64,000 nt of DNA. Source: Perkinsus chesapeaki ATCC PRA-425 (lineage: Eukaryota > Protista > Perkinsozoa). The position numbers and the translations under genes were made by a program. Shown here in pieces: positions 13,508-63,586 of the stretch. The notes under the pieces are model-generated. The model saw nothing but the letters and a program-made list of their open reading frames with translations. It ran no database searches and was not told where the DNA came from. Position 1 is the stretch's first letter, and each line of letters starts with the position of its first letter. Location: contig JAAPAO010000003.1 in NCBI GenBank assembly GCA_013115145.1, positions 124,001 to 188,000 of the forward strand, written 5' to 3'.

Positions 13508-14971
13508 ATGCGTTCGTTCTCCGACTATGACGATGGCTACTACCACGAAGGTGGCTCGAGTAGCCACAACCGGCAGCACTATGGTCAGCATGACGATCGG
13601 GTTGCATATGATGGAGGTGCCCAGTATGGCCGAAGCTTTTATGAGGACTCGGCGTGGGATGAAGGACGGTAGGAATTTATTGCCAAAAAAATAGCAGCTC
13701 CTTGTTTCGATCAAGGGACCTTTGGGTTATGAGCCCAACACGCTATCCACTGCGCCAAGCTGCTGATGATTTTTTACTCCTGGAGCTCTTGTCCCTTGAT
13801 CCTCACCTCCCTAAATTGTGCAGCGTCCACGCTATTATATTCTATCCTTTCCGCCCCTTGCAGGTCAACGTTTCGCCGTCGTGGATGGCACAGCAGCAGT
13901 GATGAGTTCCGTCGACCCGGGGACGAATCTGACAGCGATCTCTCTGATGGGAGAGGCAAGGAATGGAGAGAAACAGACAACCCAGAATCGATGACTGTGG
14001 GACAGATGGCTTCCCTTTATCTCATGCGAGAGGCTAAGCGGCGATATGAGCCTATAGAGGTAGGGTGTAACGTACATATTATCCTCCCTTGCATTTTGCT
14101 AAGGTGCTCTTGACCACCCGATCACAGGGCTTGCAATTCCCGACAAGCGATCCTTCTTCTCTTATTCAGCCTTACACCCCTTTGGAGTTCAACCCTCGAT
14201 CAACTCGGCGGCCTCGAAGCTGCAGCCGGAGCCCGTCGCCGTACATGCAGCGGCAGATTGACTCGATGTTTCGGGAGATTGATCGCACACTGGCAGAAAA
14301 GCGCGGGGAGACTTCCTCAGACCGCCGCAGTAGAAGTCGGTCTAGAGAGCGTGATTACGGCCCGACCGAAGCCAAGGGTAAGGGCTACCGGTGCTTCATC
14401 TCACCTCTGCCATCTCCTTACCGACACCGAATGCTCTTCCCACTGGTTGGGCGTATCAGTGCATTATGTTAATTTCGACTTGAATCTCTCCCAGCAGTTT
14501 TCCCGTTGAATAGTCACTACAATCGACGCCATCCAGCCGTTTAGTATTTTAGGCGATAAGGGAGCGCAGGACGATAGTATGCATTGCCCTGCAGAACTGG
14601 GGCACGGTCTCGAAGGCAAGCCTCTGCCGGGGTAAACCTACCCATCACTTGTATGTATTAATTATTCACTTTTCAGCACCATGGAGGAGGCACGATTTCT
14701 CGTGGCTTCAAGTCTGGGGCCCGAGCAAGTCCAGGCTCCTCGTGGACCAGCCACCGCTGACCCCTACGAGACGGTGAGGTGGCCCCGAATGTTCCGTAGT
14801 AAAGCCATCCTTCCTTAGTTTCGTCAGCGTACTGCGACCACGTGGACGACATTTCTCGCAGCTAAGCGGTATGCTCGGCAAGAGCCCGGCGGCGAGGATC
14901 GGCTGCGAGGCCGATGTAACTTGTGTGGTGAACCCGGCCATTACGCCAGGGATTGCCGAAGACGTTTGTAG
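13508..14971 (+). CDS. RS-rich protein with C-terminal CCHC zinc knuckle, CHERP/SUGP-like motifs
   Basis: Exon 1 MRSFSDYDDGYY..., intron 13669-13863, then TVGQMASL...RYEPIE (like CHERP PAGLMAPL...EYKPLD), RSRSRSRE, DPYETFRQR (like CHERP DPYENYRR) and CNLCGEPGHYARDC. Confidence 0.55.
13685..13691 (-). terminator. RNA polymerase III terminator (T7 on minus strand)
   Basis: Seven A on the plus strand directly after the 3' end of the tRNA gene. Confidence 0.8.
13692..13764 (-). tRNA. trnM(i): initiator tRNA-Met (CAT)
   Basis: AGCAGCTTGGCGCAGTGGATAGCGTGTTGGGCTCATAACCCAAAGGTCCCTTGATCGAAACAAGGAGCTGCTA: 73-nt cloverleaf, CAT anticodon, A1:T72, three G:C pairs in the anticodon stem, ATCGAAA T-loop, all eukaryotic initiator hallmarks. 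Confidence 0.97.
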
Positions 14972-34470: not shown

Positions 34471-37400
34471 CCACCGCCTGGCTCTCCTAGGCCCAGTATT
34501 GATGAGCTGTCGCTGCTAAGCTCATACCCTCCTATCGAATGAGCGTGCTGTTGAACGGGAAGCCCTCCAGCTGCAGAACTCACTGACGGTCGCTGCTGTT
34601 GTGGTGGCATGTTGACCGAAGGCGGTTGGTACGTTGATGATGTCGGCAAGCTAGTGGTGGTGCTATATGAGTCCGGAGCTGAATAGAGGCTCCTCATCTC
34701 GGCCGGTGGGGAGTGACTAACACTAGCGACCCTCGGCGGCTGCGATCCCCCAGTTTCGGACAGCGGTGGGGACACTCTCCGCAAAGACTCGAACACGTCC
34801 ATTAGTTGCTGCGGCGGCTGCACACCGGCCACGTTCGGCAATGAGGAGTTCCGCGAAATCTGCGGGGGAGTGCTAGTGTAGCTCACAGTGCGAGACAGAG
34901 GTGCGCCGCTGGTGACCCACGGAGAGACTGTCGGTGGAACGCTGCCGGACCTCGGCACCTGACTCCCAACAATGCCGCTATCCGTGCCGATGTTGCCTAT
35001 TACCGCCGCCGCGTTCGGTCTGGGAGGCGTACCAGGCAGCACCGATGGCACAGAGGCCTCAATGCTCGGTGATGAGTGTTGGACAGGAGCCTGCTGTGAT
35101 GGAGGCGACGACTGTGATGGCATCACCATACTAGTGGCATGATGAAGTGCTGGAGTGGCCGACCCTGCCGCAGCACCAGCCACACTGCTGCTGCTGGTTG
35201 TGACAGTCGCTGCTGCTGCCGCCAAGGGTGTGGTGGCTGCTGCTGCTGTTTGACCAGCGGCTGCCCCCGATGACAGACTGTAGAGGGTCTTCTCCATCAT
35301 GTCCATCGCCTTCGCTGACTCCGCCTGCCGAACTTGCCGCTTGCGTTCCGCTTCCTAAAACGATCCTCCTCCACCGCAAAAGTCCCCCCCGCGGCCACCT
35401 GCCCTACCTGTTTTGCTTTCAGCTTGGCCTCTGCTCGCTTGGCCTCCCTCTCCTCAATCTTCTGCCTCCTAGACTCCAGCGAGTCCACCAACAGCTGCCA
35501 TGTCCGGTCGTCCATGTTACCGTCAACTGGTAGGCTGTGATACTCCTGGAAGCTCTTAATAACATCGACCGTCGCCGGGCACATGACACCGAGCTTGGGG
35601 TAGGCGCTCAACTTCACACTAGGGACCACCGCAGCCAGGGCTATCTGCACCCAAGCGACGTCCTCCTCTGTCGGGGCGTGACCGTCGTTGAGCGGCGGAG
35701 GTATCTCAGGAAAAATCGGCACCTCAGCCGCCAGAGTAGCACCCGCCTTGCTGCTGCTTGCCGAATCCGCGCCCGACATACCAGAGTCACCGTATTCAGC
35801 GATCATGACTTCCTTGTAGAAGTTCGGTACCACCTGCCGTGCGCCGACACCAGTGACGGTATCATTGGTGAGATGGGCTGTGGACTCCGGGGTGAGATGT
35901 ACGTACTTCGACATGCTAGGCTTCTTCACCAGCTTAGCACCGCCGCTGCTGCTCGCCAGGATATCCACGCCTGTGGGAATGTGCCGTCCGCTGCAGCCAG
36001 CATGAGATATGGATCTCGGTGCTGGAGGTGGCTTGCCTGAGCCCATTAGATGGTTGCTGGGAGATACTACCCCAGTAGCCCCCGAAGGGCTTGAAGATGT
36101 CGCCACCGGCTGCTGCTGCTGAACTATGTCTTGAGAAGGAGGAGGCGTCGTCACCCGTGGGGTGCTGCTGGTAGAGGCTTCCATCTCCTTGACAGCTGGC
36201 ACCACAGGTGTTGTCTGCTCGCCAGCGATACGGGTAGGAGCAGCCTGAGCATTGTTAACCGCTACTGCCGCTCGGAGATTAGTGGCCACGGGAGCCGATG
36301 CTGTTGTGGTTGGTGTCGAAGTCGGCACAGTGGCTGCAACGGCGGCGTAGGTCTGCGGGTTATTCGCCGGTGGTGGCGTTGCCCCCACTGCTGGAGAGGC
36401 GCTGCCGAGCTTGGTGTCATCCAAGGCCTCGACGGCATCTGCCGTAAGCGGTTCACGCTCGCTCGCTTCGTACCGCCGGCCAGCCTCCAAAGCCGCCGCT
36501 GCTGGTGGGGTACTAGCCCTGGCCAGGAACGGCGGAGAGTCTGCCATCTTGTCTTCTCCATTCTCTTCAGCAAGTGATCCTGAGGCAGCAGCTTGCTCCC
36601 CCTGCTTGGTCGCAGTGCCGCCTGCAATAGCGGCCGCTACGGCTGGTGGTAGGGGAACTCCTTCTTCCAAGGCGATCTGCTTCACCCGTACAAAAACGGC
36701 CTGCCGAATCTTCTGGACGAGACGGTCCCTGTTGACCTCCCGCCAGACCAAGTTGTTCTCCAGGAGCTCCTCCGCAATGGAGTCGCACGTGTCCTCATCC
36801 AAGCTGTACTCAAAATTGATGCGCTGAAACCTGACACGACAATCCGACAAAGACGACATCGAAGACTCGGCAACAAATCTCACTTGTCCGTTTCCGTCTC
36901 GATGAGCAAGACCACTTTAGTGACCCTGTCCGAGTGGAGCTGGTTACGGCAAAAGTCTTCAATCTCGTCGGGCAACGGCACAGTACCATCATGATCCACA
37001 ACTGCTGCCATAACCTTCTCGTTCGGTGGCCTCTGGGCCACGTCACGTCTAATGACAGCCTCCCCACCAGTGAGCTTGGGAGAGTTAGCTGCTTCAATGT
37101 GGGTAGTGGCTGATATAAGCTGAGGGGCTTCGCTAGTGTCGCTGCTCTGGTCTAGGATGGCCTTCGAAGGAGGTACTGCTTGCCGAACTGCTGCCGATAG
37201 CAGGGCCATGGGGACCGAGGTGGTACGGTTGCTGAAAGAAAATAAAGTTAACAAAAGCAGCAGCAGCAGCAGGGGGCAATTACTACCTAAGAGTCACCAT
37301 GCCGTCACTCTCCTCAACATCACTTGGCGTCGGCGATACCTGTCCCACTCGAGCTGGAGTGCTCTTGATGCTTTCTGCGTCTCCATTAACATCTGGTGGT

Positions 37401-38779
37401 GCCAGAAACTGGCCGGAGGCATGTCGAGGGCCAGACCGACCCCCTCCGCTCGTGTCACCGAGATTCCGGCCAGCGTCACGCCTGTGAATTACAGTGGAGA
37501 CCTCACTCCGACCAATTTCATCACCGACGCCCCTAGGGGTCGCAGGATTCGACCGACTAATTCCTCGAGGGCTAACCTCTCCTGCTGGGGATGCCGGGGG
37601 AGTGCTAGCGGCACCATCACCATCGACTTGCCCCGACTGGCCACGAGTTTTCCGAGGCCGATGACCCTTCTCCTTAGCAGGGGTCTTCTCAGGCGGGCCC
37701 TCAGTCTCACCCTCCTTGGGCGGTAGGGGCTCCAAAGTGGCCAGCTCGTCACCGTCATCCTTCTGATTCCAGTACGGCATTGCCAGCAGCTCCGCCGCTG
37801 TGGGCCTCTTCGCTGGGTCCTTCTCAATGCATTGCTCTATGATATGCTTTAACTCCTTATTATTTATCCGCTCCAAGCTCTCCGGCATCTCACCGTTAAT
37901 AACCTTCTTGTAGATCTGTCCCGGCGTAGTGCACTCGGCGTAAGGGAATTTCCTAGTGACCATTTCCAGCAGGCACATACCAAAGGCATATATATCAACT
38001 GGAGGACCATACTTCTCCTCGTATAGTTCAGGGGCCATGAATTCAGGTGTCCCCACGATCGAGGTCGCAACAGAAGCATGCTGCAGGGCCGTGGAGAGAC
38101 CAAGGTCACCAATAAGGACTTTACCGTCGCTTCCATTGATGAAAATATTATCACACTTCAGATCCCTGTGGATGACGGGTACCTTAAGCTCGTTGTGAAG
38201 GTAGTTGATACCCTCCAGGATCTGCTTGCACCACATCCTTATCACCTTAACCTTCAGAGGCCCGTCAAGGCGGTTGATGTACTGCCGTAGAGAGCCGCCA
38301 TTTACCCTTTCGGTGATGAAGACCACTTCCTCCTTCTTTTTATTAATCCATGCATTAATAAATGATATTATCCTATCATGGTCCAATGACTTTGCAATTT
38401 TAATCTCGTCATCGATCCGCTTCCGCTCGTGCCTGGAAAGATGCGCGAACGATATAACGTTCCACGCGACCTCCCGGCCAGTATCATTATCAAACGCCAA
38501 GTAGACCGTCTTGTAGCTGCCAGATCCCAATTTCCTGTTAAATCGATGGAACCGCCCCTTAGGGCTCTTCTCCACCACACATTCCTGACCAGATTGGGAC
38601 CGCAACCGACCGCCACCACCCCCCACATGGGGCACCGAATTGCTACTGTCACTGCTCGAGCCCGATGATAATGACGAGGAGGCAGCACCAGACGATGCAT
38701 TCGAGAAATCCTCGTCTCGAGAAAGATTCTTCTCATCTTCAGAAGTTGTCTCGTGCTCCTTTAAAGTAGATGTCGGCAT
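34338..38779 (-). CDS. WNK: WNK-family Ser/Thr kinase with CCT-like domain and peptidoglycan-binding-like (PG_binding_1) domain
   Basis: LGSGSYKTVY (Lys in G-loop), VAWN (no subdomain II Lys), IHRDLKCDNIFING, IGDLGLS, VGTPEFMAPELYEE; later INFEYSLDEDTCDSIAEEL and DVAWVQIAL...FQEYHSLPVDG...TWQLL. Confidence 0.9.
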
Positions 38780-39380
38780 AAGGTTTTGCTGTTGTTCTTG
38801 TTGCTAGTGGTAAAAGATTCTCAAAGGTCAATCTTATGAGCCTTGATATTATTTTCCCGGTCTTATACGGTGAAAATAGTAAATAGTAATCCACGACGAC
38901 AGATGCCGATTAGGTTATGCACAAAAGGGGTGGAAAAGTAGCACGCAACGACAACAATCGACGGAAAGGTAGTCGACGTCGACGTCGCTCAGTTCTGACC
39001 GTTGAGGAAATGCAAGATAGCAAGATATTGTAAGTTTTGCCAAGATTGCAAGATTTCACCGCTTTGGTGCGCATAAGCTCGACTTCAGCGTAATAGGTGC
39101 GCATGTAATTAGCGAAAACTTTTCCCATTTCGAGGATCCTGTATGAGAGTTTAGGTCGACATTGTATCTTGTTGGATATTTTGAGGTTAACTTGATTGAC
39201 CATATATCTGGGATGTTGCTCTGTTAAATTTCTCTTAAGGAAGCCTAAGCGTTCTCACGGCTCGACGCTTAGCGGCTCGTACTGTGGCCACACTAGAGGC
39301 GGTCTTACTAATTTCGTGGCGCATCGCTTATCAGCTGTATAAAAGTGGTTATTAGTTTCAACGCTTGTTTTGTTCCAGTA
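38780..39380. promoter_or_regulatory. divergent strand-switch region, putative bidirectional promoter
   Basis: Lies between the starts of the minus-strand block (WNK) and plus-strand block (V-ATPase H); contains GCGCAT x3, palindrome GTCGACGTCGAC (38972-38983) and inverted repeat CTAAGCGT/ACGCTTAG (39245-39272). Confidence 0.5.
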
Positions 39381-43904: not shown

Positions 43905-44939
43905 ATGCGCCTGACAGCCGACCTCATCGAGCAGAGTGGGGAGCAGATGATAACCCCGGCGGGCGATAGAGCTCTGGTCCTCCGAGGGTAGGCCCGGGTG
44001 GTGGTGGTGATCTATGATGTCTGTGTTGTGGCTGGCAGGTTGAAGATTCCCGTGATGGAGAATTTGAGCGCTACCAAAGACCACTACGACTGTCTGGACC
44101 TTACTGACAACGATATCGCCAAGATCCCCAACGAGAGCGCGCCTCTTCTGCGGCTGCGAACTCTGGTAGCGGCGGACACGTGCCTTCCGAATAGCTAAGT
44201 TGTTTTGGCCAGATGCTGGCCAACAACCGCATCAGTCGCATAGGATCCTCGTGCTTCGACAACATGCCTAATCTGACCAGCGTCGTTCTCACCAATAACC
44301 GCCTTGAGAAACTGCAGGATCTCTACCCACTGGGTCAATGTAATGGTCTGGTGTGGCGGGGGGATAGTGCTCCTCAGTGCGGCATTTGGAGCGCGTCACA
44401 ATCCTTGACAATGACGTGTGCAACGCCCAGCACTACCGGCTTTTCCTGATCCACATCCTACCCAAGACGGTTAGATTCATCGACTTCTCAAGGGTCAAGG
44501 ACAAGGTAGTATCACAAAGGCCCGGATGGCCTGATGGACGGCGGCGGGTGGTCAGGAACGCGACGCGGCGACCAAGTTATTTGGTGGACCGGAGGGAGAG
44601 AAGTTCCTGTTGAAGATAGCGCCACGATTGAGCCAAGAGGAAGAGGAGAGCGCTAATAAGGCGGAGAGCAAGGAGAACTTGCCGAATGGTAATAGCGGGG
44701 CTTGCTGGCGGTGGATACGGTATGGACTTTAGGAGCTCCGTCGGATAGAGGCCTGCTGTTGGCTCGCATAAAGGAGGCTATCGAGGCAGCCTCTTCAATG
44801 GAGGAGGTTACCAAGCTCGAGAAGGCCCTCAGGACCGGTAGCTACTGCAGCTTTCCGGTAGTACGACTGTCTTGTGGTAGGTGAGATCCCCCCTGAGATA
44901 GAGGCGCGTCTGTCCTCCCCTACAGAAGAAAAGAAGTGA
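43905..44939 (+). CDS. SNRPA1: U2 snRNP protein A'
   Basis: MRLTADLIEQS, LRGLKIPVMENL, DCLDLTDNDI, LRTLMLANNRISRI, LVLTNN-like LTNNRL, YRLFLIHILP..RFIDF. Confidence 0.95.
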
Positions 44940-45071
44940 TATAAACGTTCCAATAATGTTTTATTCCGACATCTGTGGTCTCCTCGGGCTGCCGCCGATG
45001 TGGTCATCTTGGGCTTGCGTTGACTTACGTTCACTGAGGGCTTGTCAGATCTTTTCTAGTATACGGTAGAA

Positions 45072-47043
45072 ATGGCGCCCCTTCCTGGTTGGGATGATCC
45101 CGCAGCAGCCCCAGCAGCGCCACCGCCTCCCGGCCCTCCCGATGAGTACAACGGAGGTCGCTATGAGCGGGGCAGGGACCGTGGCAGACGGCAAAGCGGC
45201 TCTCGTGGAGGGAGCCGGGGTAGAACCTCCACACGCGACAGTCGAAGTCGCAGACGTTCGAGGTAGCCTCCGATTAGGGAAGGGAGGATATGGTGAACGG
45301 TGGCAGGTCCAGAGATCGCGGCAGCCGCCATCAGCAGCAGCGTCGAGGAAGGTCTAGATCCGGCTCGTCGTCGGGGTCCTCATCCAGCTCTCGGAGCTCC
45401 AGGTCTCGATCTCGGTCGAGACGCCGACATGCGAGGAAGAGCGGCTGGGACGATCAGACTGAGCAGCCAGAAGCGAGACACAGCAACTTCAGTAGGCTGG
45501 CGGCTGAGGCGGGGCGGGAAGCTAATGCTGCTGTGGTTTAGGTTCAGCGCCCCCGGATGGATCTGTGGACCAGCAGATACTGCTGCAGCAGGCGATGCTC
45601 GGCGGTGGGGCCGGTGCTAATAAGAAGTCTAAGGAGGTGAGAGATGCTTGAGGAGAATGAAGTCGCATTTTCTTTGGTAGCTGTACGTGGGCAATCTGGC
45701 TCAAGGGCAGGCGAACCAGGCCAACCTAAGGGCTTTCTTCAACAATGCTTTGTCGGCCCTGCCGGAGTATCAGCAGAAGTAAGTTATGCCGAGATCACCG
45801 ATGCCAGGGGGGCATGCTTCGGTTAGGTACGCCGCTTTACTGCCCACTGGTGCCGTCAGAGAGGTGAGGATGTCCGTGGAAGGAATGTACGCATTCGTCG
45901 AGTTCGCCTCGGAGGAAATCGCTGTAACGTGTCTGGAGTTTGATAAGGCTGAGTTCCTCGGTAAGTTGGCAAGCGGACTGGTCGTCTAGTGCTCGCCCGA
46001 ATCAGGCCGACCAATGAAGATCGGACGACCCACTGGCTTGGCTCTACCCGGCCCAGCCCCGCCCCCTATGGACGTCAGTGTCCTGCGCAACCAAGGATTC
46101 CTCCCTGGTAAGCAGCGTCTCGAGTTGGGGCACATGATCATCATCGGACATTCCTCTCAGGCAAGGGCATGCCATCCAACCCCTCACAGAACCGGAAGCA
46201 GCGGGAGCTCTACGTCGGAAATCTGGCTGTAAGACGGTTTGAGATAAGCGTCGTTGGGATGCCTGCTGCTGCAGGTCGGTGTGGTGACCCCACAAGTCCT
46301 ACATGAGCTGTTCGAGCCTGCCTGTAAAGTGCTGCCGGACTATGACCCTACTTTGGGGCCACCGGTGCTGCAGGCCGATATCAGAGGAGATGGAAGGTAG
46401 GTGGCACCTGATGATCGGTTGAGGGAGTCGTAGAGGAAGACCATATGTTCCTAGGGGGAATGCCTTCAGTGTTTTCTTTCATCCTAGGCACCTCTAGGCA
46501 TCGTCTTCGTATTAGGAACAGTTCTCGATCCTCGGGAAACACATGTCTGAGGATAGATGCCGCCCTGCCTGATGGATTCCTCTCCCCTCTTTGCCAGGTT
46601 TGCCTTTGTCGAGTTCCAAAACGACCGGCTAGCAAGCGCGGCTATGAGCATCTTCAACGGGGTAAACCAAAGGGGGGCTGCCTCCACCTGCAACACTGCT
46701 GTTGTTCATTCAGATGGAAGTCCTTGGTCGCCGACTAGTCTGCAGTCGACCCCAAGGCTACGAGCCCCCAGTAGCCGGTAGCCTGCCAGCGCCCGCAGCT
46801 ACTCAACAGTGGAACGCCATGCCGCAGCAAGCCAGTATAGGCTGGGGAATGCAGGGCGGAGGAGGCGGCCAAGGGTGGGGCGGAGAGCAGCAACAACAGC
46901 AAGGATGGGGCCGTGGAGGCTTTGATAACGCCAACAATACACCGTTACAGAATCCGAGGAACTTTGGAGGGCCGGCAGATGGTCAGGACGCGGCAGCGAG
47001 GGCCGGTGCGGAGGCTGCCCAAGCTCTCTTGGGTGGACGCTGA
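45072..47043 (+). CDS. U2AF large-subunit-like splicing factor (RS domain, ULM, two RRM1-type domains, no UHM seen)
   Basis: RS tract, RRRHARKSGWDD, LYVGNL...FAFVEF/YAFVEF...GRPMKIGRP and ...GRRLVCSRP. Confidence 0.8.
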
Positions 47044-47483
47044 GAATGCTCCCGGTGGTGGATGGTCGTCCGAAGGGATAACGTCTATGGGGCCAACTTG
47101 AGAAGCTGCTGCTGCTGCCCCCGCCAACATCACTAAAATCGTTAGCTTCAAACCCTACTGCGATTGTTTGGTTTTGTGACGTGAGGAGGAGCTAGTAGTT
47201 TAATTTTGTGGCGCAGCGGTCATCTTGGGAACTCGCTGTTAATGTGTGTTATTGTTTTATAGGCCCTAGCGCGTTTTTTGCGCATGCGTGCAAGGAGCGT
47301 TTTTGACCGTATTTTTGTCACGCGATGTGGGAACGAGTTACTCTACTTCACTTCCCTTCTCGATCCCGACCACTTCGTGGGTTGATAACCGAACTCTTCT
47401 GAGATACTATATTTTGACGAAGAGTCTTTGCAGCTCCTCTTCCCCTCTTCCCTTCGCCTCCCCCTCCCCCCTCCCCCTTGACA

Positions 47484-50162
47484 ATGTCATCGACCTCCTC
47501 TCCCATCACTGCAATGGACTACATTAAGATCCAGTTAAGAAGCAGTCTGAGAGAGGATAGAGCCAATGAGGTAACCAACACTGCGGTGGTGGTGATGAAG
47601 TATTTAAGGTCACTATTAGATCTTGGCAAATGTCGATGAGGGTATCCTAGAGCAGATATCTTCCTTTTTGAGGGACGCGGAGATTGCTGAAGACAAGTAA
47701 GCTTCGTTGCATGCGCCTTACGTTAGTAGTGGAGCCCAATCGTTTGCATTTCTGCGAGCTTGTCTATAGTAATCGATTGTGCAGTAGAGCAGGGTGAAAT
47801 ATATATTGTAGTGCTACTAGTGGCAAAATAATGACGCCTCTTCCACCACCTATCGACTCAGACATGCGACCCATTGTAATTACGGCAGTGTAGCGGCCTG
47901 GTACAGCAGCACTAACAAGTTCAGATTCCAGCATACTCAGCTACAGCAGCTCTACGAGTAGTACCGCGTCGCCTCTCTCCTCTGTGGCATCAGTTGTGGT
48001 TCAGATACATCGCCATCCTCTATGGCTGGGGCATCCCTATGTTCCTGACCGAGAGGCAGGATGAGAACTTCAATTTGGTGTTGGATATCGACATCAAGCT
48101 GGGGGCGCAGATGACGTGGGAGCATTGCGCTATAGCCGAGAAGGCTATTATCGATAAAGACGGCGGGACTAGATTTTTCGAGTTTATTATGAAGAACCTC
48201 TGCCCAGTACGTACCGGGCTTCGGGGGTCATGGAAAGGCTGATTCGCGATCATCGCTCCAGTTATCGGTGGGAAGTTTCCGTCCCCACTGGCAACCCTTT
48301 TTTGACGTGACCGAACAACGAACGCGTGGGGGGAGGGCTTGGGGATAAAGTGTCACGAAGACAGTAGAAATCTCTAGCCTCCGGACACGTAATCCTCTGG
48401 GATGAAAACGCGTTCCTAATGCGGAGAAGGTACTCTGGAGCTTTTCCTAGAAAATAGGTCCCAAGAGCATGGCCAGGGAACACCAGATTTCCTTCTATGG
48501 CTCCCTGGCTGGAGTCTGGATGGGATTAGGCAATGCCGGCTCGATGCCTGTTCGATGTCACCAGGTATTCCCCGGGGAGAAGCAGAAGCATATCGATGCC
48601 GCCTTGTTCTCGGCCAGCGGATACAGCAGGGACTCGGGATCTCATAAGGTCTCATTGCATGTCGTATTCCCGAACATTATAGTGGACAGGAAGAGGGCTC
48701 CTAAAATACGTACTGATAAAGAGTCATCATCGCGGCGGTATGGCAGGTGGCATCATCATCCTCTGGTGCTAGGTACACATATCGTTCAAAGGTTGTGGTC
48801 AGCGTCTTTGGAGGACGACCAGTCTTACGACCCTTTCATAGCTCAGCTCTCTCACGAGCTGCTCAAATTCTCTCCGGAGAATCGCTTCCGGAACGTCATT
48901 GATGAAACCAGTCTTATCGGCAGGTATGTCCGTCGCTGGGTGGGGAAGCAAAGCTTAGGTTGTTAGATTTGGTAACCGTCTGTGCTTCTGCGACAAGGCA
49001 TCGAGGCCGCCGCTTGTTAAGCCCGAGGGAAGGCCGTTAAAGCCAGTGGGACTGCTTAGATACAGCAGGAATAGGCAGTCTATCAGATGGTTAAGTGTAA
49101 TAGTCGGGAGAAGGATTCGCGTCGCTGGCTCTGGCTGAGTTCTGACGTGTTTAGGGCAAGTTGACTGAAGCTGGCTGGGTGAGGATCTCATCGTGCCGAT
49201 CGATGGACGGGACTTTGCCGAAGCTCACTCCTTGGGACCCTCCGCACGCTACAGCCTCCCGAGTCACCCGAACTGGCCCGGGCGGAAGCTGCGTGGACGT
49301 GAACCCGCAGAATCAGGATGCTTTCAGAAGCAGACGCTCCCACCTGAGAGGGGAGGCTGGGACCGGTTCCACCGCCGCTGCTGGGAGGATGACCGAAAGC
49401 GCGTAGGCCTGGTGGCCAGCTTTGGTGGGAAGAAAGGAATCTTTCAGCCGTTTCGAGCTCGACGATCCCGTATCTGGGGAGCAGTTCAAAGCATGGCTCA
49501 CAGGGTTTGACGGTGGCAAATGGGATGAGCACATCGAGACCAGATCGATATCGTGGAGGCCTTCGAGCAACCAGGGCTTCATCCAGTACTACCCTGAACG
49601 CAGTAAGTGTCGTGGCAGACGAGTGAAGACGACACGTCTGGTATTAGGGGTCATCGATGTGATGGCCGTTGACGACACCTGGCTGGGCCTGCTCACGGAT
49701 TTGGTTGCCGGGTCGACTAGCAAGCTGAAAGCTCGTCGAGTGGAGACTGATGGCAGCAGTAATAATGTCAACCTCACAGTATAGGACTTATGGTCTCTAT
49801 AGATGACCTGCCAGCTGAAGCCACCGCGACTGCTAGTGCTGGAGTACAGGTGGAGGATGATGGAGATGAGGACATGTTAGAAATTAAAGAAGCTTTGGAG
49901 GACTACGCTAAGTCCTCCGATGACGAAGTAGAATAGTCTTTTGTGGAAGGCTGGGAAGATCTTCTGCAGGTCGAGTTGAAGGCAGGCGAGCTGGTGCGAG
50001 TTATGGAGGTGGATCCGTCTGGCTGGACTAAGGCACGCCACCACCAGCGTTTCGCTGTAGGATTTTCATACTTCCGCTCAGGTCCGCAAAGAGGATGGCA
50101 CGTCGGGATGGGTTTCCGCTGAATTCCTCGGCAACCCCGATCCTAACCGTATGCAGCAGTAG
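47484..50162 (+). CDS. archaeo-eukaryotic primase (NCLDV-like AEP) domain protein fused to a C-terminal SH3 domain
   Basis: MFLTERQDENFNLVLDIDIK (motif I DxD), KVSLHVVFPNIIV (motif II SxH), VIDETSL...RLCFCDK...EGRPL (motif III region). Spliced C-terminus ALEDYAKSSDDEVELKAGELVRVMEVDPSGWTKVRKEDGTSGWVSAEFL. Confidence 0.75.
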
Positions 50163-50499
50163 TGGCAATATCTTCTTCTATCGGCTGGTTGCGATGGCCC
50201 GTGCGGGAGTGCGCACAGACCATCGTCTCCTAGACGTTATTATCCCGTCTTCGTTAATTGATGCGGAGTTTCTTTGACTTGGCTGAATCACCCTCTTAAA
50301 AGCACCTATGTGTTGAGTTATCAGTCCAGTGGTGAAATACATTCCAACGAGGAAAAGAATACAGCCCGCATGAGGGGCAACGGCACATAATTTTCATGGT
50401 ATTTCGAAGTCCGTACAATCGCGAGAAGTTGGCTGCAAGAGCATTTCATTTGGGAAACCCACGTCTTTCGGCTCTAGGAGCTCCGCGTAGTTTTTTTCG

Positions 50500-52871
50500 A
50501 TGAGTCGGCCAAATGCTCCCTTTCGATTGAAGTCCCGTCATAAGGCACAGCTGGCTTACGCAGCTGTGATACTAGCGAGCGCTATAGCCTGGGCCTGGCT
50601 ACAATCGGTGGAGAGAGCCCCGTTGCCTGACGTCGACTTGAACGGAGATAGCACTGCACGATGGCCGATTGTTTCGGTAGGGGTTGGTTCCACGTGGTCT
50701 GTCGCGGAGGGTGTTCAGGTGTGCGTGTGCTCGCTGGACGACAGCCTTGCCGAATTCGCTGCACCGCGCTTGGAGGGTCCCTTCGAGGCCACAGTGTCGG
50801 CGGAATGCTTCAGTGGGCGGCATACAACAGCTTTGAAGGCGGCCGGTGCGTCTACCTCTCCCGACTGTGCGGAACACATTCACCGTTTTCAGGCTGCAAC
50901 CGTGACAGTCACTCCAGTAGCTGCTTGGCCGCGTTACGCACTGTCGCTTCTAATTTTTCCGCGAAAAGCAACGTTCTCTCGGACGGCCTCCTATACCACA
51001 TTTTCGCCTACTCTTCGCCATCTGGGCAGCCTCCCAAACGACCGTCGGTGATGGAGAACTTCGCGTAGCATCTCCGAGGTATGTCAGCTCTCACTAGTGC
51101 TCCCTCAGAATCGTTGACGTGCGCGACCACAAGTTCGGTGTTGACTGGGTCTATAACACAGTCTGGTTCCCGAATAGGCCCGCCGGCTTCCATGAGAAAG
51201 TGGCCTCGGCTCTCTCAAACCCGAGGTCCGCTCTCTGTTCTGTCAAGATTCTCAGCTTTGAAATTTCAGGCAGCAACTTTCCTTTCTGCTCGTTAGTGAC
51301 GTACACAACTCAGCAAGGGCTCATTGGGATTTTTTGCACTCTGTTTACGACGCCTACATGCGGCCCCTAATAGAGAGCCGACTAGGCCTGGTACAGAAGC
51401 GGCCTGACTTCGGTTTGTCATGCCTCTATTTAGCTGCTCGATCTTGACGTAGACTCCCAAGTTGTCCATGGCGCTAGGCTGCCTGGTAGAACGCCAAAGA
51501 GCGGTGGTGCCATCCAGGACATACGGTTAAGGAGCACCAAACAGCTGCGGGAGCTGCTCACAGAAGCCAGCCGGTGGGGGAGACCGGAGACCCTCAGACA
51601 TGGGTACAGGAAACTTCCCCATAGCATACAGTAAGATTTGTCGGGACTGCTAGTGATTGCCATCACTTGCCCTTGACGCTCCCCAATACTTTTGTGAATA
51701 TTCATTTACTGGATTGCCCGAAACTAGATTGTCGTTCCAATTCCTTATGTGAATCATAGCTATCTCTTGCCGGGGAGCGGTTCAAGCCAGCGTCGATCTA
51801 GTTTCACTTGGAGAACCCCGTGGAGCTATGTCGCAACGCAGACTCGTTTGTTGACTGTGATTGTGTGCGTGTGCGTTTGTAGTCCAACGCCGAATGTGGC
51901 TTGTTGTCCCATGCTAGGACGCTCAGTGCTCCGATTCGCTGGGCGAGTTACTCACGAATCTTATTCCTTTTCTGCCGGGCATCGGTTCAGGGCGACGCCA
52001 AAGTTTAGTGGTGTATGTGTACTTCGGAACCTAGTGGATCTATGTCGCAACCCAGGTTCGCTAGTTCGCATGTCCCATTGGAAAGACGATATCACTTCTT
52101 TGCTTGAATGTCCCTAATCTCTGTTCCTCGTCAGTCTAGCTGCATACCTCGCCCCCGAGAACACCACTGTTTCCGTTGGTCCCGCAGAGAAGTCCAGCGT
52201 TGCGATCCCCGGCTGGGGAGTTGTCGCCTTCATTCCCACCGCAGATGACTATGGCTTTGCTGCTGGCATGTGGCATGCCCACTTCCGTGCGTGGCTGGGA
52301 CTTGAGCCCACATCGCCTTGTGACGAGTCTTCCGGCTGGCTGTGCTCTGACCCGATCAACGGTGTCACGGTGCCGGAGTTGTTCGAGATCGCTCGGGAAG
52401 CAGTGATATATTTCCGATCAGCGACGCGAAGCTCTTTAAAGCAGTTGAGAGATTTAGTCGACAGTCTCCCTCAAGTAGCGGTGTCCAAGGAGATTGCGGA
52501 GCGGGCCTCCAAAGCTTCAGAGTGGATATCTGTCGACTTGGTACGTCCGTGGCGCGCTCGCTCCTCCCTGCCCGCGAGTTTCAAAGTTGTATCTTTCGTC
52601 ACTGCGCGATGTATGGTTGTCTTAGGTGGAGATTGAGCAAATGGAATCAGCTTTGGCGGTGTCTAGAAGGAGCTACGAGGAGAGTACTGAAGTCCTTTAT
52701 GATGACAGCATATCAGCTCGAAGCTACTTCAGCCAGGAATTCACGCTGGCTGTCTACCTTCCAATTGCGGCACCACTACTGATACCGATCCTCGTCAATT
52801 TCTTCCATGAGCTGCGCCTATGGAGAAAATCCCGAGGCATGGCGGACGCTGGTCACGAGAAGATCGAGTAG
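50500..52871 (+). CDS. PIGS: GPI transamidase subunit PIG-S
   Basis: N-terminal TM followed by SVERAPLP; HWDFL...YMRPL...DSQVV; VAIPGWGVV; YFSQEFTLAVYLPIAAPLLIPIL. Confidence 0.85.
51751..51837. repeat. intronic element copy A (candidate structured ncRNA)
   Basis: TGCCGGGGAGCGGTTCA...GAACCCCGTGGAGCTATGTCGCAAC; related to copy B at 51956-52051. Confidence 0.7.
51956..52051. repeat. intronic element copy B (candidate structured ncRNA)
   Basis: TGCCGGGCATCGGTTCA...GAACCTAGTGGATCTATGTCGCAAC; 15/17 and 22/25 identity to copy A in the two conserved blocks. Confidence 0.7.
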
Positions 52872-61396: not shown

Positions 61397-63442
61397 ATGC
61401 TAGTGCGGCATCGCCTTCCCCTTGGCGCAGCGCGCACAACACGGTTTCCAGAGATCATTAGACCATCTGGAGGAACGCCCATCCATCTATACACCGACGA
61501 TGTGGACCAGCACACTATGCAGCAGCTGTGAGGGGCGGGGTCGCGCTATTGGCAATCTACAGCCAAGGCTCAGTGACGGACTTGTGTGGTCAGGGTCAAC
61601 CTTGCTCGGTCGCCGATGGTCGTGGGCTACGTTGCGGCCATGGCTGATGTTCACCTAGGCAAAGTTATGCAGCCGGATGGAGAACGCTCACTGTTCCATA
61701 GTTTTTTCGCAGGTGCTACGATCGGCAGTGTTTTTGCATCGCGGGATTTCGTTTGCCCCAATGCGGTGGGCGTGGACATAGGCTGTGGCATGTGCGCAGT
61801 GAAGGTAGGTCACCTCGTTTCTCGAGGTGTCTAACGTAGGGTCCGTACGGCGTGTCGCTGTCAGTGTAAAGATCCACACCATGCCAAGGGAGATGTTTCA
61901 TTGGAAAATATTCAACATTGAGGAGTGTATTTTCTGTGGTGGTTTGGGAAGGAAGGCCATCAGTCTGATAGCTCGATCGGATGATGGCACCAATTCCGAA
62001 CATTATCGCTTCGCGGCTCTTCGACCATAGTAGCCGTGGCGAGAGTGGCGGCCTTCGTAGAATTGCAGCAATAACGCTTCCGAAATAGGGTTTTGCAGTG
62101 GACGATCTATACGTAGGTTCCAGAGCTATCGAAACATGCTCTGTCGGAACGGTTCTTGACAAGGCTGCATCGTCAGTTGGTGGAGCGAATCCCGACGGGT
62201 ATATGCCAACTGAGAGACGGTTCATGGCATTGCCTACACGTTAGGCTTCAACAGCCACGAAAAAGCATCTTCTGAGATGCGAAAGGCGATGAAGCAATTG
62301 ATAGAGAAACACAACCCTACTGCGCACACTAGGCGGGTGAGCGAATAGCGTATACGATTCGAGCAGCTGACCTGTAGCCAGGTCATCGGCGATCGGCATG
62401 TGAGACAGATCGGCACTCTTGGAGGCGGCAATCATTTCATCGAGCTTCTCTACGATGAGGAGGACGGCATCTGGCTCATGCTGCATTCCGGGAGTCGAAA
62501 TATCGGCAACATTACTGCTCAGCATTACGATGAGTAAATGCGGCGACACAATTTGGTGTCCCCGACTATTAAGGGATATCTGTGAGTCGAGAGGGGTATT
62601 GGACGGTCTCAGGTTGGCAGCGAAGCAGAACGGAACGTCGAAGGAGAACCTTGCGCATCTTGCGATCGCCAGCGAGGCCGGGCAGGACTATTTGCGGGAC
62701 ATGCACTTCTGCCAGGCCTATGCGATGGAGAATCGGAGGTTCATGATGGATTCATTCGTCAGTAGCTACTATCTCCGCCGTCTTGCATCAGTCAGCGTAT
62801 TAGGCGCTGTTAGAGATCTCAGCGGGAGAGCGCCGGATTGGGACACACTCGTGAACATCCATCACAATTACTGTGAGTGTGAGGACTGTGTTTATCGGGA
62901 TCCAGAATCGGGCAAGATAATACGGGATAAGCTGTGGATCACCAGGAAAGGAGCAACTTCGGTACAAACTGGTTCACGCTGTCAAATGATCAGTCTGATT
63001 CTAGGCTCGTAAAGGCCAGCTTGGCATAATACCGGGCAGCATGGGAACCGGGAGCTACATCACTCGAGGGAAGGGCGAGAGCATGGCTTGGAGTTCATGT
63101 TCGTTTCTTCCGCCTTATCGATTCGAGCGTAATCGGTCTCGAACTGTCAACCGTGGCTTTTAGGCTCTCATGGTGCTGGCCGACGGCTGAGCCGGAACGC
63201 CGCTAAGCGGGTGGTCGGAGTTGCCGAATTGAATGAAATGATGGAAGGTATCGTTTGGGACAGCGATGCCGCTAAGTTGGTAGGATCGACTTGCCGGTAT
63301 GAGGATATTCTTATCATCGCTGCAGGTCCGTGATGAAGCACCCGTCGCCTACAAAGATCTCAAAGAAGTGATGGTGAACCAGGAGGACCTGGTCGAGGTC
63401 GTGCATAAGTTACTGCCGTTGATGAACATGAAGGGATATTAG
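61397..63442 (+). CDS. rtcB: RtcB RNA ligase, bacterial (E. coli RtcB-like) type, with N-terminal extension
   Basis: MADVHLG, GATIGSV, PNAVGVDIGCGM, IGTLGGGNHFIE, IWLMLHSGSRNIG, NIHHNY, WITRKGAT, GIIPGSMG, SHGAGRRLSR, DEAPVAYK; multi-exon. Confidence 0.93.
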
Positions 63443-63586
63443 TGTCACCGCACCGTATCGCGTACCGTTGGTTTCGAGTTTCCGTATTGCGGTGCGGTCT
63501 CACTGCTATCCGTAAACACGGTTTTTCCGACTTTCCTAGGATGTGTTGTTCAAGGGAGGGGGAGCGTTCACACCGCAGGGTTTCCC

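What the first reader, a model, noticed from the sequence alone, without database searches (positions are those of the whole stretch)
47484..50162. Intron-rich NCLDV-like AEP primase fused to an SH3 domain
Seen: intact AEP motifs (hhhDhD, SxH, and a D/R-K motif III region) preceded by a Y...G.PMFLTE segment like giant-virus D5/C962R-type primases. They join in frame, via short introns including 49766-49802-region GT-AG and GC-AG 50033-50081, to a textbook SH3 (ALEDY...ELKAGE...SGW...GWV). No helicase or PriCT module was seen. Established: SH3 binds proline-rich peptides in signalling and cytoskeleton; it is not a standard partner of AEPs. Inference: a domesticated viral primase-polymerase recruited to a protein complex or membrane via SH3, a previously unrecognised architecture as far as I can recall.
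Basis: partly seen in the sequence, partly recalled or inferred. Interest (0 to 1): 0.75.

Follow-up and report, generated by a model that had tools for sequence, protein, structure and literature searches.

The report
Alveolate prim-pol fused to SH3
This Perkinsus (shellfish parasite) gene encodes a primase-polymerase-type domain with intact catalytic residues joined to an SH3 domain, a fusion shared with dozens of related proteins that have mostly lost those residues, and it likely extends existing nucleic-acid ends for a docked partner rather than priming DNA replication.

Summary
The fusion is real. Thirteen exons (47484-50162) give a 556-aa protein without internal stops, 73.8% identical to P. 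marinus PMAR003674. The window matches P. chesapeaki FOL47_005396. The AEP fold is confirmed (Z 18.9 to ASFV C962R, 14.0 to human PrimPol), with DxD, SxH, hhD and R..K intact. There is no helicase, PriCT or Zn finger.

The fusion is not unique to Perkinsus. An SH3-free profile listed 150 relatives; 41 carry SH3, including a transcript-derived protein. Of 33 SH3-fused relatives with a scorable AEP domain, 32 have Arg/Lys instead of the motif II His; only Perkinsus is intact. Unfused paralogs are mostly intact (65 of 85), and some carry RNA-related domains.

Recent viral capture is unsupported: 12 introns, housekeeping neighbours, and viral AEPs ranking last of 139. An AU test did not reject it (p 0.129). 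Best reading: a primer-dependent, probably RNA-acting, nucleotide-adding enzyme docked by SH3 (0.4). Activity and substrate are untested. Ten literature searches found no description, but the key prim-pol paper was unreadable.

The parts
47484..50162 (+). 13-exon gene, 556 aa: N-terminal helices + AEP + linker + TBP-like domain + linker + SH3. Exons 47484-47570, 47620-47696, 47862-47957, 48005-48206, 48565-48709, 48773-48923, 48967-49096, 49155-49402, 49448-49602, 49648-49758, 49803-49927, 49970-50032, 50082-50162. Start codon not verified (the NCBI model starts 10 codons later).
47638..49244 (+). AEP (prim-pol) domain, aa 36-326, spread over exons 2-8
   Evidence: Pfam AEP_C962R/PPL4; ortholog model Z 18.9, rmsd 3.2, 236 aligned to ASFV C962R and Z 14.0, rmsd 4.4, 223 aligned to human PrimPol; 79.9% identical to P. 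marinus
48075..48098 (+). Motif I hhhDhD (D114, D116)
48649..48669 (+). Motif II SxH (S184, H186); Arg/Lys in 32 of 33 listed SH3-fused family members
48892..48912 (+). Motif III hhD (D246)
48977..48997 (+). Conserved R257...K263; triphosphate-binding role inferred from recalled PrimPol R291/K297
49269..49289 (+). Conserved Gly/Ser linker motif in a low-confidence segment; a loose GGS-type pattern in 26 of 34 full-length SH3 members
49398..49745 (+). Small alpha/beta domain, aa 377-463, TBP-like arrangement (PGM domain 4, KA1, adaptin platform, TBP among matches); no specific family
   Evidence: pLDDT 90.9; best Z 8.8, rmsd 2.9, 86 aligned; no Foldseek match at E<=0.001
49874..50138 (+). SH3 domain, aa 492-549, split by introns 11 and 12
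   Evidence: (Z 11.2, rmsd 0.8, 56 aligned to Nck SH3)
50033..50081 (+). GC-AG intron (49 nt) inside the SH3; retention shifts the frame

Best explanation
The gene encodes an AEP-fold protein with all catalytic residues, a TBP-like domain and an SH3, and it likely works as a soluble, primer-dependent nucleotide-adding enzyme, probably acting on RNA ends, that its SH3 would dock on a partner protein, not as a replicative primase. Shown: gene model by homology, domain order, fold, motifs, family breadth. Inferred: two-metal catalysis by D114/D116/D246 with H186, R257 and K263 holding the triphosphate; extension of existing 3' ends because the modules that usually support priming are absent; an RNA substrate because paralogs carry RNA-related domains; docking through SH3. 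In most other SH3- and WW-fused members the active site has eroded, so these are likely nucleotide- or RNA-binding scaffolds or altered enzymes.
For: Intact DxD/H/D/R..K in 3 of 3 Perkinsus sequences; AEP 79.9% and SH3 77.6% identical between P. chesapeaki and P. marinus against 37% in the adjacent linker. [quoted passage not shown] None of the 150 listed relatives showed a helicase, PriCT or UL52-Zn Pfam hit (best 5 families shown per protein in 31 and 32). Paralog fusions: RNase III (P0106 25.1 bits, P0116 17.4; both under cut-off 27), CCCH + LOTUS (P0115; 23.1 over 20.5, 17.3 under 23.8), RanBP zinc finger (P0099; 28 over 27), DCD (P0104; 104 bits). The RNase III-fused paralogs also hit a profile of the middle domain. 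A sister group carries WW, another proline-peptide binder, in the same C-terminal position (5 of 150). No signal or membrane segment in the window model.
Against: No activity, substrate, location or partner was tested. The RNA link rests on 5 paralogs of 150 with mostly weak hits, none in the SH3 branch. C962R and human PrimPol prefer dNTPs. The sugar-selector position is ambiguous: Phe if counted 14 residues before the motif I Asp, as for PrimPol Y100 and C962R Y83, but Thr if anchored on the conserved Glu. The Perkinsus SH3 lacks the family's Pro. His is nested among Arg-bearing relatives (9 of 12 rows of the smallest supported clade), so 'intact' may be a reversion of uncertain function.
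Confidence: 0.4

Rival explanations
1. It is a nuclear or organellar DNA repair / gap-filling polymerase, like C962R's AEP or PrimPol's polymerase mode, brought to a repair complex by the SH3.
For: Closest solved folds are dNTP-preferring DNA enzymes; Phe lies 14 residues before the motif I Asp, the spacing of PrimPol Y100 and C962R Y83; TBP and CENP-N, DNA binders, are among the weak matches of the middle domain.
Against: No DNA-replication or repair domain among listed relatives; middle-domain matches are at background level (best Z 8.8); no obvious organellar leader (4 basic and 4 acidic residues in the first 30).
Confidence: 0.27
2. It is a pseudo-enzyme in Perkinsus too: a nucleotide- or nucleic-acid-binding scaffold whose main output is protein binding through SH3 and the TBP-like domain.
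For: 32 of 33 SH3-fused and 5 of 5 WW-fused members lack the motif II His; only 6 of 33 keep three acidic residues, while R252/D257/R270/P274 stay nearly invariant and the SH3 Trp, Glu and Gly are kept.
Against: All three Perkinsus species keep every catalytic residue. Arg or Lys at motif II defines the DR0530-like AEP family (PMC5862659 passage), so His-to-Arg alone does not show inactivity.
Confidence: 0.23
3. It is a recently domesticated giant-virus primase that still starts primers de novo.
For: Best profile and fold matches outside the family are NCLDV proteins (at 0.80, a lead only, 49, 50). The AU test did not reject Perkinsus + viral rows as one clade (p 0.129).
Against: 12 introns; only housekeeping eukaryote genes among the Pfam hits of 40 window ORFs scanned; 8 viral AEPs score 3-15 bits against the window domain versus 110-154 for the nearest non-Perkinsus family members; the ML tree nests Perkinsus among non-viral rows (95/87); 4 viral-contig scans with A2, P0005, P0065 and P0139 found nothing and one with P0059 only 26-28% matches; no priming-support domain.
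Confidence: 0.07
4. The fusion is a gene-prediction artefact: AEP and SH3 exons are separate genes.
For: No RNA from this species covers the locus; the NCBI model of this locus is itself mis-joined to the next gene.
Against: Same domain order in P. marinus and P. olseni, in an MMETSP transcript with both domains over Pfam cut-off (P0012) and in 41 of 150 relatives found with an SH3-free profile.
Confidence: 0.03

Closest known systems
ASFV C962R AEP domain (Pfam AEP_C962R, PF23162; PDB 8IQB/9IWA)
   Same: Fold (Z 18.7-18.9), Pfam over cut-off, DxD/H/D active site (PMC10516667).
   Different: 15% identity; no PriCT2, D5_N or SF3 helicase; TBP-like domain and SH3 instead; intron-rich host gene.
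Human PrimPol (PDB 5L2X/7JL8)
   Same: AEP fold (Z 13.5-14.0), motif I/II/III order.
   Different: No C-terminal UL52-type Zn finger (one Cys after aa 330; its role in priming is recalled); no Tyr just before the conserved Glu; SH3 present.
Pfam PPL4 'Prim-pol 4' (PF18188); eukaryotic prim-pols of Burroughs and Aravind 2016
   Same: P. marinus ortholog passes the PPL4 cut-off (29.9 vs 25); paralogs with RNase III-like fusions fit my recollection that this paper links prim-pols to RNA repair and Dicer-like proteins.
   Different: The window's NCBI model scores 24.2, just under. The paper was not held (seen only as a reference line), so I cannot say whether it already shows the SH3 architecture.
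Prasinovirus/phycodnavirus-type AEP with UL52 Zn finger (loci L001-L016)
   Same: Hit by the family profile at 33-71 bits; same spacing of the Glu before motif I.
   Different: Family members score 144-402 bits on their own profile; viral rows form their own clade (100/99); L001's protein has a weak UL52 Zn-finger hit.
DR0530-like AEP family
   Same: Arg/Lys replaces the motif II His (PMC5862659 passage), as in most SH3-fused relatives.
   Different: Bacterial Prim-Pol clade; no homology test was made; Perkinsus itself has His.

Membership tests
AEP superfamily | Palm-type AEP fold | tested here: met
   Ortholog model pLDDT 85.2; Z 18.9 / rmsd 3.2 / 236 aligned to C962R
AEP superfamily | Motifs I (DxD), II (sxH), III (hD) | tested here: met
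   D114/D116, S184/H186, D246; placed by alignment, not by structural superposition
AEP superfamily | Nucleotidyl-transfer activity | not testable with these tools
   needs biochemistry
C962R / D5-type primase-helicase | AEP_C962R profile over cut-off | tested here: met
   42.5 and 48.8 bits vs 23
C962R / D5-type primase-helicase | PriCT2, D5_N and SF3 helicase after the AEP | tested here: not met
   No Pfam hit, no Walker A; the remaining residues are accounted for by the TBP-like domain, linkers and SH3
C962R / D5-type primase-helicase | Viral genomic context | tested here: not met
   12 introns; housekeeping neighbours
PrimPol (CCDC111) | C-terminal UL52 Zn finger | tested here: not met
   One Cys after aa 330; no Herpes_UL52 hit
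PPL4 prim-pols | PF18188 over cut-off | tested here: inconclusive
   P0002 29.9, P0001 24.2, cut-off 25; viral L001 protein also 22.4
PPL4 prim-pols | Clade and architectures as defined in the source paper | not testable with these tools
   paper not held
SH3 domain | Profile and fold | tested here: met
   SH3_1 26.2 and 33.4 bits vs 22.9; Z 11.2, rmsd 0.8 to Nck SH3
SH3 domain | Canonical PxxP-binding surface (recalled consensus) | tested here: inconclusive
   Trp, RT-loop Glu and Gly kept; first Tyr is Glu and Pro is Ser in Perkinsus
KH domain (middle domain, from one faint Pfam hit in P0045) | KH fold | tested here: inconclusive
   Top 50 structural matches were TBP-like, CYTH, PGM, KA1 and adaptin-type folds, best Z 8.8

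The most novel reading that the evidence does not exclude
Perkinsus and dinoflagellate-like alveolates hold an undescribed radiation of prim-pol proteins that left DNA replication: intact paralogs with RNA-handling domains, and SH3- or WW-tethered branches that turned into nucleotide/RNA-binding pseudo-enzymes of cytoplasmic signalling, with Perkinsus keeping or regaining the only catalytically complete SH3 form, an RNA-end-extending enzyme placed by a signalling adaptor.
Probability: 0.25. Interest if true: 0.72.

Novelty: new variant of a known kind. Interest (0 to 1): 0.5.

Why it matters
AEPs are known as replication, repair and CRISPR-linked enzymes, with helicase, PriCT or Zn-finger partners. 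An old, conserved fusion to SH3, and a parallel one to WW, would tie this fold to proline-peptide adaptor networks. The family offers a natural series from intact (Perkinsus) through His-to-Arg with three acids kept to fully eroded active sites, so the birth of a pseudo-polymerase can be tested directly. The limits: both domains are already auto-annotated on the public P. marinus protein, function is untested, and a 2016 paper that I could not read may already list the architecture.

Tried and rejected
No whole genome is held for the window. No RNA holder listed; two guessed-RNA runs laid 0 contigs, which says nothing on expression. Word-seeded protein searches found only 2, 2 and 4 proteins, so they gave no wider taxonomy. 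Metagenome contig scans found no locus, so the DNA of the environmental orthologs was not seen and their lack of introns is only inferred. Two pattern scans with deep alignments could not run; prokaryote genomes were therefore not scanned. No match in GenBank phages, none in PDB sequences for the SH3-free profile, no NCBIfam hit over cut-off. The Atlas gave leads of 0.80 to NCLDV AEP clusters and nothing for the middle region. KH identity of the middle domain was considered; no KH entry was among the 50 rows shown. Sugar-selector inference was inconclusive. No Rfam family (only one tRNA in the window) and no notable repeats at the locus. Earlier findings: nothing in 3 look-ups. No complex prediction was run. 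Literature: 10 searches, seen as listings; none listed a paper on an AEP-SH3 fusion. Burroughs and Aravind 2016 and Iyer 2005 were not held; their figures and supplements may bear on novelty.

Full report
Identity. One exon-rich ORF searched against longer proteins gave two hits: P0001, Perkinsus chesapeaki FOL47_005396, and P0002, P. marinus PMAR003674. P0001 matches the window's exons essentially letter for letter (97.9% over aa 11-532 of my model), so the window is P. chesapeaki or very close to it. No whole genome was held.

Gene model. A spliced alignment of P0002 to the window gave 12 introns, 11 GT-AG and one GC-AG. With acceptor 49802 for intron 10, as in P0001, the CDS runs 47484-50162: 556 aa, no internal stop, 73.8% identical to P0002 over 554 aa. 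Retaining an intron breaks the frame or adds a stop in 10 of 12 cases; introns 5 and 9 are in frame without stops and rest on homology alone. P. olseni has the same gene (P0183, P0068). No RNA of this species could be laid on the locus.

Domains. Pfam passes AEP_C962R and SH3_1 on both P0001 and P0002, and PPL4 on P0002 only. An AlphaFold model of P0002 from a 49-row alignment has mean pLDDT 85.2. Residues 33-321 match ASFV C962R (Z 18.9, rmsd 3.2, 236 aligned), human PrimPol (14.0), herpes primase (12.0) and poxvirus D5/E5 (11.3); residues 488-548 match SH3 domains (Z about 11). Foldseek against viral models lists NCLDV primases at 8-16% identity. Folded alone (pLDDT 90.9), it has a TBP-like alpha/beta arrangement with best Z 8.8, which is near background, and no Foldseek match at E<=0.001. 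There is no helicase, PriCT or Zn finger and no signal or membrane segment.

Family. A two-sequence profile without the SH3 found 190 proteins among 1.84 billion representatives; 150 were listed and 40 not seen. Pfam found SH3 in 41 of the 150 and WW in 5; by my count from those tables, 11 pass the curated cut-off for both AEP_C962R and an SH3 model. I looked up 23 clusters. Named ones are the three Perkinsus species, Amphidinium massartii (P0015, transcript), another MMETSP transcript (P0012, both domains over cut-off) and Symbiodinium (cluster of the unfused P0055); one cluster also held a 32-aa Staphylococcus fragment that I take for a clustering artefact. The rest are unnamed JGI, ENA or Logan proteins. 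'Alveolate' and 'dinoflagellate' are therefore inferred from few names.

Active site. I aligned 131 of 152 sequences (150 listed plus the window model and P0183; 21 dropped for AEP stretches under 180 aa). All 3 Perkinsus sequences have DxD, His, Asp and Arg..Lys. Among the 33 listed SH3-fused members with a scorable domain, 1 (P0002) is intact, 32 have Arg or Lys at motif II, and 6 keep three acids. WW-fused: 0 of 5 intact. Others: 65 of 85 fully covered are intact. His-to-Arg does not prove loss of activity, since DR0530-like AEPs have Arg/Lys there (PMC5862659, passages). Loss of the motif III Asp and parts of motif I in the large dinoflagellate-like clade argues more strongly for pseudo-enzymes. 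The SH3 keeps Glu (41 of 42), Trp (40 of 41) and Gly (41 of 42); Pro is kept in 37 of 42 but is Ser in Perkinsus.

Origin. Neighbouring ORFs with Pfam hits are housekeeping eukaryote genes: THOC2, kinesin, PRMT5, a kinase, V-ATPase H, PIG-S, bZIP, RING, RtcB (40 window ORFs scanned). Viral-contig scans gave only distant phycodnavirus-like AEPs. Eight of these rank 132-139 of 139 against the window's AEP domain. In a 66-row IQ-TREE tree (58 of 131 family rows picked by hand, plus 8 viral; LG+G4, 300 columns) the viral rows form one clade (100/99). Perkinsus lies in a 12-row clade (95/87) whose 9 other rows have Arg at motif II. SH3-fused proteins fall in two clades whose union is unresolved. 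Against my reading: the AU test did not reject Perkinsus + viral as one clade (19 log-likelihood units worse, p 0.129), and the viral sample is narrow. A recent capture is unlikely; an old viral origin of the whole family is open.

Mechanism. The C962R AEP alone extends primers, prefers dNTPs, and showed no clear terminal transferase activity (PMC10516667, passages). With the same catalytic set and no priming-support module, the Perkinsus protein most likely extends existing ends (inferred). Substrate is the weak step. Five intact paralogs carry RNA-related domains (RNA binding of these domain types is recalled), and I recall the 2016 Burroughs and Aravind paper linking eukaryotic prim-pols to RNA repair, but I could not read it. 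The sugar selector is Tyr100 in human PrimPol (PMC6362072, passages); the equivalent here is Phe or Thr depending on the register, so it does not decide. I put RNA-end extension at 0.40, DNA gap filling at 0.27, pseudo-enzyme at 0.23, recent viral primase at 0.07 and artefact at 0.03.

Novelty. The AEP type and SH3 are known, and both are auto-annotated on the public P. marinus record. Ten full-text searches, seen as listings, showed no paper on the fusion; the library lacks most subscription papers and the two most relevant AEP surveys. Three look-ups of earlier scan findings gave nothing. Verdict: a real, conserved new architectural variant of a known enzyme kind, more interesting as a family with graded active-site decay than as a viral capture. 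Interest 0.5.

Noticed in passing
window 50033-52871: NCBI model FOL47_005396 (P0001, 1020 aa) skips the last SH3 exon and runs on into the next gene, PIG-S (Pfam 91.7 bits). P. marinus and P. olseni orthologs end right after the SH3, so the model is likely two genes merged.
   Followed up: partly
window ~61500-63443 (+): Intron-containing RtcB RNA ligase gene (Pfam 52.9 bits on one exon; sequence read), about 12 kb downstream of the AEP-SH3 gene. Probably chance neighbourhood in a eukaryote.
   Followed up: no
proteins P0109, P0134, P0137, P0138, P0151: AEP-WW fusions, all with Arg at motif II and an eroded motif I; a second proline-peptide-binding partner for the same fold.
   Followed up: partly
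proteins P0106, P0116, P0115, P0099, P0104, P0078, P0097: Catalytically intact paralogs fused to RNase III-like, CCCH/LOTUS, RanBP zinc finger, DCD, LRR or beta-helix domains; hosts mostly unnamed.
   Followed up: partly
proteins P0065, P0066, P0069, P0076, P0083, P0084, P0087: A tight clade of ~860-1160-aa intact AEP proteins; the P0065 cluster lies on 20-40 kb environmental contigs and was not found in viral contigs. Host unknown.
   Followed up: partly
window 35300-38803 (-): Protein kinase ORF next to an ORF with a peptidoglycan-binding domain (38.3 bits) and a weak OSR1_C hit; looks like a WNK/OSR1-type kinase with an unusual bacterial-type domain.
   Followed up: no
window 43992-47046 (+): Upstream genes: an LRR_9 protein (U2A'-like, recalled) and an RS-rich, RRM-like gene with GC donors possible; both splicing-related by appearance.
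   Followed up: no
window 13692-13764 (-): tRNA gene, the only Rfam match in the window.
   Followed up: no
window 48207-48564 and 47697-47861: Two introns (358 and 165 nt) are much longer than the other ten (42-63 nt); no Rfam match or notable repeat in them.
   Followed up: partly
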